DNA of 64,000 bases from a virus (Duplodnaviria; Caudoviricetes). Shown piece by piece: positions 24,575-48,851 of the stretch. The notes under the pieces are model-generated. The model saw only the letters and a program-made list of their open reading frames with translations, had not been told where the DNA came from and ran no database searches. The DNA is taken from the IMG/VR virus record IMGVR_UViG_3300035208_003115, one strand, 5' to 3'. The position numbers were made by a program, and so were the translations under genes. The stretch's first letter is position 1. Every line of letters begins with the position of its first letter.

Positions 24575-24648
24575 ACGACAATGGTGTAACAGTAGCATCA
24601 CGGACTCCAAACCCGTGGGCGAACGTGCAAATCGTTCTTGTCGTGCCA
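24575..24648 (+). tRNA. tRNA-Trp(CCA)
   Basis: acgga-ctCCAaa-cccgt, G73, CCA. Confidence 0.85.
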
Positions 24649-25231: not shown

Positions 25232-25471
25232 ATGCCACGGTCTAAGTTAGTTATTGCGTCTTTGGTAGCCCAAAAATTCGGTCAACACCTCAAGAAATTG
25301 AGGGATAAGAGGAAGCTATCCCAGTACAAGTTGGCCGCAAAGATCAAAATGCACCCGATGATGATCAACCATTATGAGAAGGGAAGACGTCAGCCAACCC
25401 TTGGATCAATTATCAGATTGGCGGAGGGATTGGGTGTTCCCCCCGCCGACCTATTGAAGTATGAAAAGTAA
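25232..25471 (+). CDS. XRE-family HTH regulator
   Basis: LKKLR....LSQ..LA......I..YEKG.RQP. Confidence 0.9.
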   Translation: MPRSKLVIASLVAQKFGQHLKKLRDKRKLSQYKLAAKIKMHPMMINHYEKGRRQPTLGSIIRLAEGLGVPPADLLKYEK

Positions 25472-25473
25472 GT

Positions 25474-25550
25474 GCCCTCTTCGTTCAATTGAACAGGACC
25501 CGCGGCTACGAACCGCGAGATGGTGGGTTTGAGTCCCCCGGAGGGTACCA
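25474..25550 (+). tRNA. tRNA-Arg(ACG)
   Basis: cgcgg-ctACGaa-ccgcg, CCA. Confidence 0.9.
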
Positions 25551-25553
25551 TAT

Positions 25554-25627
25554 ACCAAGGTCGGCCAAATACTAGGCTTCCAGACGTCAGTCTGGCGATG
25601 CAGGTGAGATCCCTGCCCTTGGTACCA
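25554..25627 (+). tRNA. atypical tRNA with 6-nt anticodon loop CGTCAG (identity unclear)
   Basis: ACCAAGG/CCTTGGT, ccaga/tctgg, CCA. Confidence 0.55.
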
Positions 25628-25971: not shown

Positions 25972-26280
25972 ATGTTGAAATGGGATACGAAGTTAGAAAA
26001 TTGGCTTATAAAGCAGATAGATCAATGGTCCGTCAATGGCGAAGCAGATAAGATCGGTGATTTAATTGGATATTTGCGGGATAAGCTGTGCTCTGCTCAA
26101 ATTCCCGAAGAGTCTGATAATTCTCCCTACGAGCATTTTGAAAATGGTTTTAATCTCGGGGCTGAAAACTGGGATAAGAAGTTCATCGCCATCGAGTTTG
26201 AGGAAGATATTTTTATCTTTGAGATGTCAGCTAAAGAAGTGAAGAATAAAGTTACTACCTGGATTAAGAGCCGCCCGTAG
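25972..26280 (+). CDS. hypothetical protein
   Basis: RBS; stop lies inside the next tRNA. Confidence 0.6.
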   Translation: MLKWDTKLENWLIKQIDQWSVNGEADKIGDLIGYLRDKLCSAQIPEESDNSPYEHFENGFNLGAENWDKKFIAIEFEEDIFIFEMSAKEVKNKVTTWIKSRP

Positions 26281-26353
26281 CCAGGCCACTCTCCGGAGGT
26301 GGTAGCTGTAGCTGGAGCTGCGAACGCAGGTTCAAATCCTGCCGGGCGGGCCA
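26271..26353 (+). tRNA. tRNA-Arg(CCG), rearranged D arm
   Basis: CCGCCCG/CGGGCGG, ccact-ctCCGga-ggtgg, T arm, CCA. Confidence 0.75.
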
Positions 26354-26367
26354 TATAAGGAGCTAAG

Positions 26368-26655
26368 ATGAGTCGTTTCAACGTAGAAGTTAAGCTTCTT
26401 CATGCCGGTCAACCAAGACCATATGCCGATTCCCGGCGCGAAGCAGAACTAATCTTTAAGAATTGGTGGGACTCTACAACCGGCGAACGTGAAGGAAACT
26501 GGGATCCAGAAGAAGAGCTAGTCCGACAACTAACAAAACTTCTAGTTGCTGACTTTAAGGAAAAGCCAGTCTGGCACGAGAATCGTCTCCAAAAGATTGA
26601 GAAGCTAGGGGTGGGCAGATGGTTAGTTGAAGTTATAGAGCCCTTCTGCGATTAA
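26368..26655 (+). CDS. hypothetical protein
   Basis: RBS AGGAG. Confidence 0.6.
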   Translation: MSRFNVEVKLLHAGQPRPYADSRREAELIFKNWWDSTTGEREGNWDPEEELVRQLTKLLVADFKEKPVWHENRLQKIEKLGVGRWLVEVIEPFCD

Positions 26656-26656
26656 C

Positions 26657-26739
26657 GTCCCTGTAGCCGAAGGCGTTTCCTAAACGCTTAAACGTAAAGG
26701 GAGCTGAAAATGTTGGTTCGAATCCAACCAGGGATACCA
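26657..26739 (+). tRNA. tRNA-Arg(CCT), rearranged D arm
   Basis: GTCCCTG/CAGGGAT, ggcgt-ttCCTaa-acgct, T arm, CCA. Confidence 0.75.
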
Positions 26740-26896
26740 TTATGGGACATAAGAGACGAGGGAAATTGTTTGGTCTAAGGCGGAAGGGCATACTCTGGGA
26801 CCATAATTGGGATGGCGGGAAGGTAGATCGTTTTGATAAGTTCTGGAAGAGATATTGGAGTCGCTGGTTAAGACGCCAGGGAAATAAGGAGCTGGG

Positions 26897-27370
26897 ATGA
26901 AGAGATTGGTGTTAATTTTGCTGCTTATTGCCAGTCCTGCGTGGACAATTAGTCCCGGATGGATACATATAGATAGAAGGGAATTAACCCTTAGGTATAC
27001 GGAAGGTGACCAAGCCTGGATTTTCCCCGTATGTATAGGTCGAAAAGGAACTCAAGACAAGGCAACATGTACCCCGGCCGGGGAATACCGTATTATTTAT
27101 AAGAAAAAGAATCCATGGTATCGCAATGTAGGAGAAGATGCCGAGTGGGTTCCTCCATATAATCAGGATAAACGTAATAAATATGGGACGAGAATTATGG
27201 GGCTAGATTATAGGCGGACAGAATCTTCCCGCCGCATGGCTATTCACGGGACTAATGAACCCGAGTTAATTCCCGGCTATTATAGCGCTATGTGTATTAG
27301 ACTTAGAAATGAGGATGTTGAGTTTTTATACAATAAAGTTGAAAATGGGTGTCGGGTTATTATAGAATAG
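26897..27370 (+). CDS. L,D-transpeptidase (YkuD family) with signal peptide
   Basis: TPAGEY.I..K..NP.W, AIHGTN..L....S.MCIRL.NEDVE.LY. Confidence 0.9.
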   Translation: MKRLVLILLLIASPAWTISPGWIHIDRRELTLRYTEGDQAWIFPVCIGRKGTQDKATCTPAGEYRIIYKKKNPWYRNVGEDAEWVPPYNQDKRNKYGTRIMGLDYRRTESSRRMAIHGTNEPELIPGYYSAMCIRLRNEDVEFLYNKVENGCRVIIE

Positions 27371-27386
27371 ACTATAAGTTCTATGT

Positions 27387-27468
27387 GCCCCAGTAGCCGG
27401 GCCGAGCTTCTACCTCGGTACCCGTAGTGGAGCTGGAATCAGGGGTTCAAATCCCTTCTGGGGTACCA
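27387..27468 (+). tRNA. tRNA-Arg(TCT), rearranged D arm
   Basis: GCCCCAG/CTGGGGT, ccgag-ctTCTac-ctcgg, T arm, CCA. Confidence 0.75.
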
Positions 27469-27485
27469 ATTTTAAAGGAGCTAAG

Positions 27486-27821
27486 ATGAAGAAATTCGAA
27501 GTAACCAAGGAGCATATCAAATTACTAAAGGAGATGTATGTATCTTGGTGGGACTGTGAGTTTGGGGCTCCCGCTATTGATCCCAAAAGACCTTATGGTA
27601 ATCGCGATGTTCTTCGGGATCTTGCCGAGACTGTATATGGGGCAAAAAATCTCAGATATAGTCGAGACGGAGAACTCCCTGAGTCGATAGAGATAAAGCT
27701 TTGTGACATTCACACAGAGATGAAGACAGTCTTACAGATACTAGTTAATAACTGTAGAATTAGCCCTGGGATGTACTGGACGAAAGATGATTCAGAAAGA
27801 GTTTGGGTAAGAGAGAAGTAA
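27486..27821 (+). CDS. hypothetical phage protein
   Basis: RBS; DPKRPYGN motif. Confidence 0.65.
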   Translation: MKKFEVTKEHIKLLKEMYVSWWDCEFGAPAIDPKRPYGNRDVLRDLAETVYGAKNLRYSRDGELPESIEIKLCDIHTEMKTVLQILVNNCRISPGMYWTKDDSERVWVREK

Positions 27822-27837
27822 AAGTAATCGAGTATAC

Positions 27838-27913
27838 GAGCCCTTCGTCTAAATGCTAAGGACGCCCGCCATAAGGCGGAGAAATGTTAGTTCGCAACTA
27901 GCAGGGCTCACCG
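27838..27913 (+). pseudogene. atypical tRNA with CAT-containing short loop, ending CCG
   Basis: GAGCCCT/AGGGCTC, D and T arms present. Confidence 0.55.
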
Positions 27914-30369: not shown

Positions 30370-30443
30370 GCGGGTTGGGTGTGGTAGTAGCATATGACAT
30401 TGCCAATGTTAAGGTACCGGAGCGTAACCGGTAACCCGCTCCA
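30370..30443 (+). tRNA. tRNA-Gly(GCC)
   Basis: tgaca-ttGCCaa-tgtta, atypical T loop, CCA. Confidence 0.82.
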
Positions 30444-31398: not shown

Positions 31399-31490
31399 GG
31401 CCCCGTGGTCTAATGGTAAGACGAACGGTTTATACCCGTTGAGCCCTGGACTGGGGCGCAATCTCGGTTCGAATCCGGGCGGGGCTACCA
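31399..31490 (+). tRNA. tRNA-Ile(TAT) with long variable arm, replacement copy
   Basis: aacgg-ttTATac-ccgtt, V arm GCCCT-GGACT-GGGGC, CCA. Confidence 0.85.
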
Positions 31491-46511: not shown

Positions 46512-46590
46512 TGGTGGAGCGCCTGGGAATTGAACCCAGCTGGTATTCTCATTGCAAGTGAGACGACCACCCCATGCAGTCCCGCGCCCC
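46512..46590 (-). tRNA. tRNA-Ala(TGC)
   Basis: G3:U70, tctca-ctTGCaa-tgaga, CCA. Confidence 0.88.
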
Positions 46591-46794: not shown

Positions 46795-47718
46795 TTAGTC
46801 AACATGAATGGTCTCCTTGATTACTTCTAGTACCTTCTCTGGGATTATAGCAATATTGCACGGGTTGTTCAACTGGCAATGTGTAAAGCATGGAACAGGT
46901 CTACATACTGCTTCCTTGGGCCTAACTGGCTCTACATACCTCACAGATGGCCCAATTGGCCCCACAAACGGCCCTTTCTGACCCGATTCTTGCGCACAGC
47001 CCATGGTGGCCCCCATGACTATAACAGAGGGCAAATTGACTGATTCAGCCAGATATGAGGGCCCGCTATCAACACCTACATAGAACTTGGCTCTCTCTAG
47101 AACCGCTGCTGTTTCTTGGTACACTGTTTTACCACAGAGGTCTATTGTCCCGGGTACACGCTTGTCAGATCCGATGCCTATCTGAACTACTTCTATACCC
47201 ATGGACTTCTTTATCATGGATACTAATTTTGTGAAGTGCTGAATGGGCCAGTCTTTACTTGCGACTCGAGAGGTGGTATGGATAACGGCATAAGTATTAT
47301 TAGGAATAATGGGGGATATATTTTTTCTGGCCTCGTCGCCTATATTAAAGCGGATATGTTTATCTTTAATGGGAGTGGTTAATAGACCCGTCCTAGATGC
47401 GTACCAGTCAATCATATGAGAGTTACGAGTCTCAGGAGTGTGATGCCACATTGTATCGTAGTGGTTGGCCCTGGCCATCCGGGCTATGTGGTCAGATTGT
47501 TTCCCGCGGAGATATTGATATACATCGGGGTAAGAACCGCCATCATATAGAACGATATCATTGATCTCGGGGTTCCCCGCCAGTAGACCTTTATAGACCT
47601 TATTTGTGTGAAATCGAATTTGAACATCGGGGTATTGTCTTTTTATTTCAGAGATAATAGGGGTTGTCATTAAGACGTCTCCCATCGTCTGAAATAATAC
47701 TAGATCGAATATTTTCAT
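46795..47718 (-). CDS. GT9 (heptosyltransferase-like) glycosyltransferase
   Basis: MGDVL.TTP, KDWP, DLCGKT, GVDSG. Confidence 0.88.
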   Translation of the reverse strand: MKIFDLVLFQTMGDVLMTTPIISEIKRQYPDVQIRFHTNKVYKGLLAGNPEINDIVLYDGGSYPDVYQYLRGKQSDHIARMARANHYDTMWHHTPETRNSHMIDWYASRTGLLTTPIKDKHIRFNIGDEARKNISPIIPNNTYAVIHTTSRVASKDWPIQHFTKLVSMIKKSMGIEVVQIGIGSDKRVPGTIDLCGKTVYQETAAVLERAKFYVGVDSGPSYLAESVNLPSVIVMGATMGCAQESGQKGPFVGPIGPSVRYVEPVRPKEAVCRPVPCFTHCQLNNPCNIAIIPEKVLEVIKETIHVD

Positions 47719-48851
47719 TTCCAGTCCTCTAATATATCCACTGTTCTAGTTGCGACCTTGGAGGCAATATTATGCCACTCGTATGGTTGCATATCAATGG
47801 CTGCTTTTTCTCCTAGCTTTTCCATCTCTTTGGGATGTTCGTAGGCCCAGCGCATTTGCCTTCGAAGGTCTCCAATGTCTGCATTCCACCACTCATGACC
47901 AGATTGAACGGGCTCTCTTAAAAGCCAGGGAACATCTGAAACGGGAATTTGCCGACACTTAACGAGAAGACCATTTGTTTCATTCATATAGGAACGATGA
48001 CCCGATGCATCTGTCATTATTGTCGGTACCCCACAGGCCATAGACTGCATAGTACCATAACTCCACCCCTCTCCTCGAGTAGGGAGAACATAGCAATTAG
48101 AAGCACGATGAAGAGATGCGATTTCATCATTTGTCATACTGTCTCCGAGGAATAGTAAATGAGCAGTTGACTTGTTGGCTGTTCTATATTTTATAATTAC
48201 GTCTTTAATCATTCTTTTGGATCTCTCGAAGTCCCCGCCGGAGTATGCCTTTAAGACAAGTGTAACGTTGTCCCTAGCTGAGAACTCTTGGAAATATGCG
48301 TTTAGGAGAAGATCTGGGCCTTTACTTGTTTTGTAGTCCATAATACTAAGGAATACAAACTCCTTCCTGCCTATAATTTTTGCAGGACTAATATTCGGGT
48401 TATATCTTTGTAGATTAACTCCTAGTGGAATTACCTGAATCTTTTTTTCGGGCAATCCTCCTTTGACGAAGGCTTGTTTTCCCCATTCTGTTGGAACCCA
48501 TATCTCATCTAATGGGACTTGTTTCTCTATCAACTGCCAGACATATGGGCACCGATCGGTCTCATATATGGTAGCGCAAATATTCGGAACACCCTGCTTT
48601 CGTTCTACGATTCTAGATGGTGGCATATGATTAATATAGATATGGTCATCCGGAAGAGTTGTTCGTTCCATTTCTTGGAGCTTAGTTAGTTGCATATTAG
48701 AGAATACATTTGAGATAGAAGACCAGTTATCCAGAGGGGTTAGTCTCGTCGGGACACCGATGTCATATAGTGCGAGCGACAACTCTCTAACGACTAGAGC
48801 TATTCCAGAGATGTCTTTATACGGTCCATAGATTTCTATTCCAAATGACAT
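47715..48851 (-). CDS. GT4 glycosyltransferase
   Basis: KG.D.LL.AY..EF, LPTRGEGW....QSMACG.P. Confidence 0.88.
   Translation of the reverse strand: MSFGIEIYGPYKDISGIALVVRELSLALYDIGVPTRLTPLDNWSSISNVFSNMQLTKLQEMERTTLPDDHIYINHMPPSRIVERKQGVPNICATIYETDRCPYVWQLIEKQVPLDEIWVPTEWGKQAFVKGGLPEKKIQVIPLGVNLQRYNPNISPAKIIGRKEFVFLSIMDYKTSKGPDLLLNAYFQEFSARDNVTLVLKAYSGGDFERSKRMIKDVIIKYRTANKSTAHLLFLGDSMTNDEIASLHRASNCYVLPTRGEGWSYGTMQSMACGVPTIMTDASGHRSYMNETNGLLVKCRQIPVSDVPWLLREPVQSGHEWWNADIGDLRRQMRWAYEHPKEMEKLGEKAAIDMQPYEWHNIASKVATRTVDILEDWK

What the first reader, a model, noticed from the sequence alone, without database searches (positions are those of the whole stretch)
26271..27468. Three tRNA-Arg genes (CCG, CCT, TCT) with a shared rearranged cloverleaf
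Seen: all have normal acceptor and T arms and CCA but no D arm before the anticodon arm. The shared layout is acceptor, TAGC, a short stem (CAG / CG / CGGG), anticodon arm, a 2-3 nt bulge, the complementary strand (CTG / CG / CCCG), TA..GGA, GCTG, 5 nt, T arm. TAGC can pair with GCTG, so a D-stem equivalent encloses the anticodon arm and a D-loop-like GGA sits 3' of it. The stems covary across the copies. Known: G18-G19 dock on the T loop and A20 is a major ArgRS identity element. Inference: a topologically rewired but functional tRNA-Arg class, perhaps evading host tRNA nucleases. Standard scanners would likely mis-call these.
Basis: partly seen in the sequence, partly recalled or inferred. 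Interest (0 to 1): 0.8.

Follow-up and report, generated by a model that had tools for sequence, protein, structure and literature searches.

The report
Rewired non-cloverleaf phage arginine tRNAs
Three genes in this phage's tRNA cluster are very probably working arginine tRNAs built on a non-cloverleaf plan: the anticodon arm sits inside the D-stem and the D-loop is a side bulge. Hundreds of phages share the plan, gene finders miss it, and I found no paper that describes it.

Summary
At 26271-26353 (CCG), 26657-26739 (CCT) and 27387-27468 (TCT) lie three tRNA-like genes with normal acceptor, anticodon and T arms and an encoded CCA, but no D hairpin. ARAGORN misses all three. Rfam's tRNA model finds two, weakly.

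They belong to a large class, almost confined to phages. I collected 147 unique full-type copies from IMG/VR, and every one has an arginine anticodon. Covariation supports the odd stem at pairs 10-48, 11-47 and 13-37.

Two further results suggest the bulge acts as a true D-loop:
- Its third base covaries with the last linker base (A-U 109, G-C 18, G-G 4), as the canonical 15:48 tertiary pair does.
- The base after GG is A in 172 of 172 arginine copies and U in 20 of 20 Ile or CAU copies with the same wiring.

Cultured phages carry unannotated copies, among them Pseudomonas PA11 and TC6, Caulobacter Ccr10, Vibrio D419 and Microbacterium Pumpernickel.

Expression, charging and the 3D fold are untested, and nuclease evasion has no evidence. 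This scan has already flagged the class on at least 63 other genomes. Six full-text searches and a review of non-canonical tRNAs turned up no description.

The parts
26271..26353 (+). Rewired tRNA-Arg(CCG), 80 nt plus CCA. Acceptor 26271-26277 / 26343-26349; closing helix H1 26278-26281 / 26317-26320; short stem 26282-26284 / 26306-26308; anticodon stem 26286-26290 / 26298-26302; anticodon 26293-26295; D-loop-like bulge 26309-26316 (UAGCUGGA); linker 26321-26325; T arm 26326-26342; discriminator G 26350.
   Evidence: Sequence; class model R1 78.4 bits; missed by ARAGORN and by Rfam at its gathering threshold.
26657..26739 (+). Rewired tRNA-Arg(CCU). Anticodon 26679-26681; bulge 26695-26702 (UAAAGGGA); H1 26664-26667 / 26703-26706; linker 26707-26711; T arm 26712-26728; discriminator A 26736; CCA 26737-26739.
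   Evidence: R1 89.1 bits; Rfam tRNA 34.7 bits with a forced alignment; no ARAGORN call.
27387..27468 (+). Rewired tRNA-Arg(UCU). Anticodon 27409-27411; 4-bp short stem 27398-27401 / 27421-27424; bulge 27425-27431 (UAGUGGA); H1 27394-27397 / 27432-27435; linker 27436-27440; T arm 27441-27457; discriminator A 27465; CCA 27466-27468.
   Evidence: R1 80.8 bits; Rfam tRNA 34.9 bits, with the D arm deleted and an 18-nt variable insert; no ARAGORN call.
25474..25550 (+). Ordinary cloverleaf tRNA-Arg(ACG). It is the fourth member of the phage's arginine isoacceptor set. Together the four anticodons ACG, CCG, CCU and UCU read all six arginine codons.
   Evidence: ARAGORN; Rfam 33.5 bits; only 14.9 bits with R1.

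Best explanation
These are three working arginine isoacceptor tRNAs of a phage-borne class with a non-cloverleaf secondary structure.

Structure. The 5' strand U8-A9-R10-Y11-C12-G13 runs straight from the acceptor stem into the anticodon arm. Its partner strand lies after the anticodon arm and is split in two (C-G, then Y-R-U-G) by an 8-nt bulge, U-A-R-N-N-G-G-A. The bulge keeps the canonical D-loop nucleotides A14, R15, G18, G19 and A20. A 5-nt linker then leads into a normal T arm.

Inferred mechanism. The bulge docks on the T loop through GG. Its R pairs with the last linker base, as in the 15:48 Levitt pair, so an L-shaped core forms despite the changed strand order. Host ArgRS reads the bulge A (A20) and C35. 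Host RNase P and the CCA machinery process the RNA. The tRNAs then read CGG, AGG and AGA, which make up 58% of arginine codons in this phage's genes.

Shown: the secondary structure by covariation, the 15:48-like covariation, the exclusive link to arginine anticodons, the A/U identity switch, and non-redundant isoacceptor sets. Inferred: expression, charging, ribosome use and the 3D fold.
For: Size of the class:
- Two scans of viral contigs gave 104 and more than 119 loci.
- Model R1 scores the three window genes at 78-89 bits and every ordinary tRNA at 24 bits or less.
- 147 unique full-type copies all carry arginine anticodons: TCT 114, TCG 17, ACG 8, CCT 5, GCG 2, CCG 1.

Covariation on 131 sequences:
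- 96.8% of cells are paired, against 66% in shuffles and 35-45% when partners are slid.
- Pair 10-48: GC 94, AU 32, CG 3, UA 1.
- Pair 11-47: CG 102, UA 13, AU 9, UG 4.
- Pair 13-37: GC 104, AU 19, CG 7, UA 1, none unpaired.
- With H1 left free in the search, the forms found were TAGC/GCTG 46, TAAC/GTTG 24, TAGT/ACTG 10, TAGA/TCTG 4 and others.

Tertiary signal: bulge base 3 against linker base 5 gives AU 109, GC 18, GG 4 and nothing else. Its mutual information of 0.70 bits ranks among the helix pairs and is the only strong non-helical signal.

Identity: A follows GG in 172 of 172 arginine copies and U in 20 of 20 Ile(GAU, UAU) or CAU copies with the same wiring.

Function:
- In 38 of 38 loci with more than one rewired arginine gene, all anticodons differ.
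- A cloverleaf tRNA-Arg with the same anticodon shares the locus in only 12 of 220 cases, although 78 have some cloverleaf tRNA-Arg nearby.
- In the window's ORFs, arginine codons are AGA 32%, AGG 15% and CGG 11%.
- Phage PA11 (49.6 kb, 44.8% GC, no annotated aaRS) has exactly one R1 hit (87.7 bits, 47672-47751, CCA encoded) and no ARAGORN tRNA. 37% of its arginine codons are AGA or AGG. PMC6209634 gives 66% GC for the host of its close relative TC6.
Against: - There are no expression, processing or aminoacylation data.
- The proposed fold is not the thermodynamic optimum for any of the three genes: -31.4 against -39.1, -22.2 against -27.9 and -29.2 against -32.3 kcal/mol.
- U8, A9 and the closing U and G never vary, so two of the four H1 pairs are unproven. 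They may instead be tertiary contacts.
- Only one nucleotide separates GG from the next helix, where ordinary tRNAs have at least two. Whether a canonical elbow can form is therefore open.
- The related sequences share ancestry, so the shuffle controls overstate significance.
Confidence: 0.75

Rival explanations
1. They are tRNA-like decoys or anti-defence RNAs that are not used in translation. For example, they could act as baits for host tRNA-cleaving defence nucleases or as sponges for a host factor.
For: The class is almost confined to phages: 22 pattern matches in one genome each of 185,579 species, of which 17 scored 72.7-93.3 bits with model R1. Most lie on MAG contigs and a few in Rhizobiales isolates. 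Phage tRNAs are known to counter tRNA-targeting defences (PMC10264068, PMC11464382).
Against: Anticodons are spread over all arginine codon families. They are always distinct within a locus and usually complement the cloverleaf arginine tRNAs beside them. The acceptor stem, discriminator and CCA are all kept, and A follows GG exactly as ArgRS identity would require. In PA11 the rewired gene is the only tRNA, and it matches codons that a 66% GC host rarely uses.
Confidence: 0.1
2. They are ordinary D-armless tRNAs with a long unstructured variable region, which is how Rfam's tRNA model aligns them. In that reading the UAGC/GCUG and short-stem pairings do not form.
For: The Rfam alignment of 27387-27465 deletes the D arm and inserts 18 nt after the anticodon arm. 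The proposed fold is not the MFE.
Against: Pairs 10-48, 11-47, 13-37 and, in two thirds of copies, 14-36 covary. There are almost no unpaired cells at the first three. The hairpin length is fixed at 27 nt, rarely 28.
Confidence: 0.05
3. They are precursors that are cut and re-ligated, for example by a phage RNA ligase, into a standard cloverleaf order.
For: Some carrier phages encode an RtcB-like ligase near the tRNA block (Microbacterium phage Pumpernickel). Permuted and split tRNA genes that are repaired at the RNA level exist in algae and archaea.
Against: The 5' and 3' acceptor halves are already in the normal order. Restoring a cloverleaf would need two cuts and two joins inside the molecule. 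PA11-type phages have about 70 genes and no annotated RNA ligase. No bulge-helix-bulge or intron features are seen.
Confidence: 0.03
4. They are decaying pseudogenes or chance tRNA fragments in a recombining tRNA array.
For: The array holds other odd or broken tRNA-like pieces.
Against: There are 147 unique copies with the same fixed-length architecture. All helices show compensatory changes, and the copies occur in phages of Pseudomonas, Vibrio, Caulobacter and Microbacterium.
Confidence: 0.02

Closest known systems
Canonical class I bacterial and phage tRNA-Arg (Rfam RF00005), for example this phage's own tRNA-Arg(ACG) at 25474-25550
   Same: 7-bp acceptor, discriminator and CCA. A 5-bp anticodon stem with a 7-nt loop, U33 and a purine at 37. 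A 5-nt segment before a normal T arm (UUCRANN loop). D-loop nucleotides A14, R15, G18, G19 and A20, and 15:48-type covariation.
   Different: There is no D hairpin. The strand after position 9 leads directly into the anticodon arm. The complementary strand and the D-loop nucleotides come after the anticodon arm, and the D-loop is a bulge inside that strand. About 8 nt are extra. R1 gives 78-89 bits for these genes against 24 or less for cloverleaf tRNAs.
D-arm-lacking mitochondrial tRNAs (mammalian mt-tRNA-Ser(AGY), nematode mt-tRNAs; reviewed in PMC7609411)
   Same: No D hairpin precedes the anticodon arm, and the anticodon helix is extended.
   Different: The mitochondrial forms have lost the D-loop/T-loop interaction and work only with adapted mitochondrial factors. 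This class keeps GG, the 15:48-like pair and a full T loop, and it occurs in phages of ordinary bacteria.
Permuted tRNA genes of Cyanidioschyzon merolae and split or multi-intron archaeal tRNA genes
   Same: The order of tRNA segments in the gene departs from the cloverleaf order.
   Different: In those cases the mature tRNA is a normal cloverleaf after circularisation or splicing. Here the termini are in the normal order, the rearrangement is internal, and no processing signals are seen. The mature RNA is inferred to keep the rewired order.
Other non-canonical bacterial tRNAs: tRNA-Sec, tRNA-Pyl and allo-tRNAs (8/4 and 9/3; PMC5389517, PMC7609411)
   Same: Natural tRNAs of bacteria and their phages that depart from the standard dimensions and are missed by gene finders.
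   Different: Those tRNAs change stem lengths but keep the cloverleaf topology of four hairpin arms in the standard order. This class changes the topology itself.

Membership tests
tRNA, canonical cloverleaf (Rfam RF00005) | 7-bp acceptor stem, discriminator and 3' CCA | tested here: met
   All three genes. Acceptor pairs are 99% paired with compensatory changes at all 7 positions.
tRNA, canonical cloverleaf (Rfam RF00005) | T arm: 5-bp stem and a 7-nt UUCRANN loop | tested here: met
   99.1% paired, and 4 of 5 pairs covary.
tRNA, canonical cloverleaf (Rfam RF00005) | Anticodon arm: 5-bp stem and a 7-nt loop with U33 and a purine at 37 | tested here: met
   Loops CUCCGGA, UUCCUAA and CUUCUAC. 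All 5 stem pairs covary.
tRNA, canonical cloverleaf (Rfam RF00005) | D hairpin (stem 10-13/22-25 closed by the D loop) between position 9 and the anticodon arm | tested here: not met
   Only 8 nt separate the acceptor from the anticodon stem. Rfam has to delete the D arm to align them.
tRNA, canonical cloverleaf (Rfam RF00005) | Score at or above the Rfam gathering threshold (29 bits) | tested here: inconclusive
   34.7 and 34.9 bits for two genes. The gene at 26271 is not reported even at E-value 1 or below.
tRNA, canonical cloverleaf (Rfam RF00005) | Tertiary core: R15:Y48 pair and G18-G19 for the T-loop contact | tested here: met
   Bulge base 3 against linker base 5 gives AU 109, GC 18, GG 4 and no other combination. 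GG is invariant. The physical contact itself is not testable here.
Rewired phage tRNA class (covariance model R1 built here) | High score with R1, clearly separated from cloverleaf tRNAs | tested here: met
   78.4, 89.1 and 80.8 bits, against 24 or less for the other tRNAs of the window. The three genes were among the 74 training sequences.
Rewired phage tRNA class (covariance model R1 built here) | Closing helix plus short stem enclosing a 27-nt anticodon hairpin, with a UAR..GGA bulge and a 5-nt linker | tested here: met
Bacterial tRNA-Arg identity set (ArgRS: A20, C35, position 36) | A at the position after G18-G19, and C35 | tested here: met
   GGA in all three genes and in 172 of 172 arginine-anticodon copies, against GGU in 20 of 20 non-arginine copies. 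All anticodons are NCG or YCU. That A20 is the ArgRS determinant comes from the literature (PMC9976931 is a review held by the library; I did not read it in detail).
Bacterial tRNA-Arg identity set (ArgRS: A20, C35, position 36) | Aminoacylation with arginine | not testable with these tools
   This needs an in vitro charging assay or an acid-urea northern blot.
D-armless mitochondrial-type tRNA | Loss of the D-loop/T-loop interaction elements | tested here: not met
   GG, A14-like and R15-like bases and the full T loop are all conserved.
Permuted tRNA gene (3' half upstream of 5' half) | Acceptor termini internal to the gene, joined by a processed linker | tested here: not met
   The acceptor 5' and 3' strands are at the ends of the gene in the normal order, followed by CCA.

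The most novel reading that the evidence does not exclude
A natural class of elongator tRNAs that is not a cloverleaf works with ordinary bacterial ArgRS, EF-Tu and ribosomes. Phages keep it because the rewired core escapes host tRNA-targeting defences, or host modification and quality-control enzymes, that read the D-arm or elbow. If so, the cloverleaf topology itself is dispensable for bacterial translation, and the rewired scaffold could serve as an orthogonal tRNA chassis.
Probability: 0.2. Interest if true: 0.92.

Novelty: new variant of a known kind. Interest (0 to 1): 0.8.

Why it matters
Every tRNA known to work in bacterial translation is a cloverleaf. Departures are limited to stem lengths (Sec, Pyl, allo-tRNAs) or to mitochondria with adapted machinery. 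If this class is charged and used, the order of strands in the tRNA core can change while the tertiary contacts are kept. That bears on how ArgRS, RNase P, EF-Tu, modification enzymes and the ribosome recognise tRNA.

There are practical consequences as well. Phage tRNA counts are underestimated: PA11 and TC6 are published as having no tRNA genes. Studies of codon usage against tRNA content are therefore biased for arginine and isoleucine. Annotation pipelines need a dedicated model. Cultured phages of Pseudomonas, Caulobacter, Vibrio and Microbacterium make the question directly testable.

Tried and rejected
- In-silico 'un-swapping'. I re-ordered the segments into cloverleaf order and ran ARAGORN. 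It called tRNA-Arg in 145 of 147 constructs, against 5 of 147 in native order. The controls passed equally: bulge reversed 147 of 147, stem strand reversed 142 of 147, and an alternative re-ordering 144 of 147. The test cannot tell the wiring models apart, and I do not use it as evidence.
- Single-sequence folding does not recover the proposed fold. This is uninformative rather than contrary, because covariation supports the fold.
- blastn of the 2-kb region against cultured phages found nothing.
- No whole genome is held for this window.
- Promoter-like hexamers end 19 nt upstream of 27387 and 24 nt upstream of 26271. Their number does not exceed the shuffled expectation, 4 found against 4.6.
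- Literature: six full-text searches and the review of non-canonical tRNAs (PMC7609411) gave no description of this layout. PMC10690425 lists a candidate viral structured RNA (DNAVirus_2961) that only sometimes overlaps ARAGORN tRNA-Arg calls. It could be this class, but no supplementary file was held to check.
- The local hairpin AGCU...AGCU in the gene at 26271, which could mimic a D arm after the anticodon arm, is absent from the other two genes and from the homologues. I rejected it.
Full report
**Observation.** The window carries a phage-type tRNA array: ARAGORN tRNAs on the + strand between 20.3 and 32.1 kb, and one more on the - strand at 46512-46590. None of these covers 26271-26353, 26657-26739 or 27387-27468. 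Each gene has:
- a 7-bp acceptor stem, a discriminator and an encoded CCA;
- a normal T arm;
- a normal anticodon stem-loop, with anticodons CCG, CCU and UCU;
- only eight nucleotides (UAGC plus the start of a short stem) between the acceptor and the anticodon stem.

After the anticodon arm come the complementary short strand, a bulge UAR-N(1-2)-GGA, GCUG, five nucleotides and the T arm. A pattern for this layout hits three times in the window and never in shuffles. Rfam's tRNA model reaches 34.7 and 34.9 bits on two genes, but only by deleting the D arm and inserting a long variable region. It misses the third gene.

**A large phage class.** A loose pattern scan of IMG/VR gave 104 loci. All 74 unique full matches carried arginine anticodons. 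I built a covariance model, R1, from the first set. It scores the three window genes at 78-89 bits and every ordinary tRNA of the window at 24 bits or less. Over 181 loci I collected 147 unique full-type copies: TCT 114, TCG 17, ACG 8, CCT 5, GCG 2, CCG 1. There are also shorter-helix arginine variants and about 20 copies with the same wiring but Ile (GAU, UAU) or CAU anticodons.

**Secondary structure.** These figures come from 131 aligned sequences.
- 96.8% of cells are paired, against 66% after shuffling and 35-45% when partners are slid.
- All acceptor and anticodon-stem pairs, and four of the five T-stem pairs, covary.
- For the unusual part, pair 10-48 is GC 94, AU 32, CG 3, UA 1.
- Pair 11-47 is CG 102, UA 13, AU 9, UG 4.
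- Pair 13-37 is GC 104, AU 19, CG 7, UA 1, with no unpaired cell.
- Pair 12-38 is always C-G.
- Pair 14-36 forms in two thirds of copies, with four main pair types.

With the helix unconstrained in the search, the forms found were TAGC/GCTG 46, TAAC/GTTG 24, TAGT/ACTG 10, TAGA/TCTG 4, TAAT/ATTG 3, TAAA/TTTG 2, TATC/GATG 1 and TACA/TGTG 1. U8, A9 and the closing U and G never vary. Their pairing is therefore unproven, and their invariance hints at tertiary roles.

The anticodon hairpin is 27 nt in 68 of 75 unique copies and 28 nt in the rest. Counted from the bulge, it gives about 9-10 stacked layers. That is my own count, and it matches the D-stem plus position 26 plus the anticodon stem of a normal tRNA.

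**The bulge behaves as a D-loop.** A scan of all column pairs for mutual information found only one strong non-helical signal. The third bulge base (R, in the position of R15) covaries with the last linker base (Y, in the position of Y48): A-U 119, G-C 24, G-G 4 and no other combination, at 0.70 bits. On the tool-made alignment the counts are AU 109, GC 18, other 4. This is the signature of the canonical Levitt pair.

Second, the base after GG is A in 172 of 172 arginine copies and U in 20 of 20 non-arginine copies of the same architecture. The apparent exceptions were parsing errors. A20 is the classical ArgRS identity element, which is established knowledge. Together these results argue that the tertiary core and the ArgRS determinants are kept while the strand order is changed.

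**Function (inferred).**
- The window's four arginine genes, cloverleaf ACG plus rewired CCG, CCU and UCU, form the minimal set that reads all six arginine codons.
- AGA, AGG and CGG make up 32%, 15% and 11% of arginine codons in 46 long ORFs of the window.
- In 38 of 38 loci with several rewired arginine genes, all anticodons differ.
- A cloverleaf tRNA-Arg with the same anticodon is nearby in only 12 of 220 cases, although 78 have some cloverleaf tRNA-Arg nearby.
- Cellular genomes almost lack the class. There were 22 pattern matches in one genome each of 185,579 species, and 17 of them scored 72.7-93.3 bits with R1. Most lie on MAG contigs and a few in Rhizobiales isolates.

**Cultured phages.** Unannotated copies are confirmed by R1 in five cultured phages.

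| Phage | Record and position | R1 bits | Anticodon |
|---|---|---|---|
| Pseudomonas PA11 | NC_007808, 47672-47751 | 87.7 | UCU |
| Pseudomonas TC6 | MG676466 | 87.7 | - |
| Pseudomonas vB_PaeM_Ty | OQ555403 | 92.9 | UCU |
| Caulobacter Ccr10 | KY555142, 51785-51864 | 79.9 | ACG |
| Vibrio D419 | OZ195672, 65929-66008 | 81.6 | ACG |
| Microbacterium Pumpernickel | NC_073468, 100456-100533 | 66.8 | UCU |

In Ccr10 the gene lies in a gap between annotated tRNAs. For D419, blastn matched about 286 Vibrio phage records, of which I checked one with R1. Pumpernickel carries a short-helix variant.

PA11 has 70 annotated CDSs, no annotated aaRS or RNA ligase, and no ARAGORN tRNA. Its GC content is 44.8%, and AGA plus AGG make up 37% of its arginine codons. 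The TC6 paper reports 'No intact tRNA genes' from tRNAscan-SE, and 45% GC against 66% for the host (PMC6209634). A single rewired tRNA-Arg(UCU) in a small AT-rich phage of a GC-rich host fits codon supplementation using the host ArgRS.

**How it may fold (inference only).** Two readings fit the data.
- Reading (a): the hairpin from C12 to G38 replaces the coaxial D-stem/anticodon-stem stack. The strand leaving its top continues as A14-R15-..-G18-G19-A20, just as strand 10-13 does in a cloverleaf. The closing helix is then an added element that ties the acceptor 5' strand and the linker to the top of that stack. This amounts to exchanging segments 10-21 and 22-43 of a cloverleaf.
- Reading (b): the closing helix is the D-stem proper, and the anticodon hairpin is inserted between positions 13 and 14.

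A difficulty for any canonical elbow is that only one nucleotide separates GG from the next helix. I could not discriminate between the readings. An ARAGORN 'un-swap' test passed its negative controls as well, so it is uninformative.

**Rivals.**
- Decoy or anti-defence RNA (0.10). Weakened by the complementary isoacceptor sets and by the retention of identity elements.
- Plain D-armless tRNA with an unstructured variable region (0.05). Contradicted by covariation.
- Cut-and-rejoin precursor (0.03). It would need two internal joins, and PA11 has no annotated ligase.
- Pseudogenes (0.02). Contradicted by conservation.

The anticodon loops, the usual target, look ordinary.

**Novelty.** This scan has already flagged the class on other DNA: 66 notes in at least 63 genomes, with follow-ups reaching the same reading.
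- covariation of the closing helix in a search that left it free;
- the 15:48-type tertiary covariation;
- the A/U identity switch;
- the non-redundancy statistics;
- named cultured phages with a published 'no tRNA' statement.

I found no paper describing the layout. Subscription literature is not covered. I classify it as a new variant of a known kind, namely tRNA.

**Surroundings.** The three genes are interleaved with small + strand ORFs. The ORF at 25972-26280 ends inside the first 10 nt of the first gene. The ORF at 26897-27370 is a YkuD L,D-transpeptidase domain protein, and the ORF at 25232-25471 is an HTH_3 protein. The other three ORFs scanned have no Pfam match.

Noticed in passing
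window 27838-27913 (+): tRNA-like element with acceptor, D-like and T-like arms (MFE z-score -4.1). Where the anticodon loop should be there is a 5-bp stem with a 4-nt loop (CCGCC-AUAA-GGCGG), and the 3' end reads ACCG. ARAGORN and Rfam at its gathering threshold both miss it; R1 gives 19.6 bits.
   Followed up: partly
window 25554-25627 (+): A second odd tRNA-like element ending in ACCA. It has a 6-bp stem and 4-nt loop in the anticodon position and an atypical T loop (MFE z-score -3.3). No finder calls it; R1 gives 15.4 bits.
   Followed up: partly
window 24575-24645 and 30370-30440 (+): Rfam tRNA hits (48.5 and 40.9 bits) that ARAGORN does not call. Both end in CCA and have weak D-arm regions.
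   Followed up: no
window 31399-31490 (+): tRNA-Ile(UAU) of 92 nt with a normal D arm and a variable region of about 21 nt. That is a class II-like length, unusual for isoleucine.
   Followed up: no
window 26355-26371 and 27474-27489: Nearly the same ribosome-binding context (AAGGAGCUAAGAUGA) begins a few bases after the CCA of the first and third rewired tRNAs. This suggests duplicated tRNA-plus-gene-start modules.
   Followed up: no
window 26897-27370 (+): A 157-aa YkuD L,D-transpeptidase domain protein (Pfam E-value 2.5e-23) is encoded in the middle of the tRNA array.
   Followed up: partly
L014:9652-9731, L034:4102-4190, L057:8601-8678, L099:2525-2601 and 2702-2778, L102, L126, L134, L152, L164 (IMG/VR loci): The same rewired architecture with Ile (GAU, UAU) and CAU anticodons. 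These copies have GGU instead of GGA in the bulge, often a shorter closing helix, and sometimes an extra variable hairpin (about 90 nt in total).
   Followed up: partly
L206 (Pseudomonas phage PA11, NC_007808) 47246-47751: The annotated HNH endonuclease CDS (47246-47698) overlaps the first 27 nt of the unannotated rewired tRNA-Arg(UCU) at 47672-47751.
   Followed up: no
L210 (Vibrio phage D419, OZ195672) 65929-66008: The record's tRNA numbering jumps from TRNA_0009 to TRNA_0011 at the place where the rewired tRNA-Arg(ACG) lies. A call may have been made there and then dropped during annotation.
   Followed up: no
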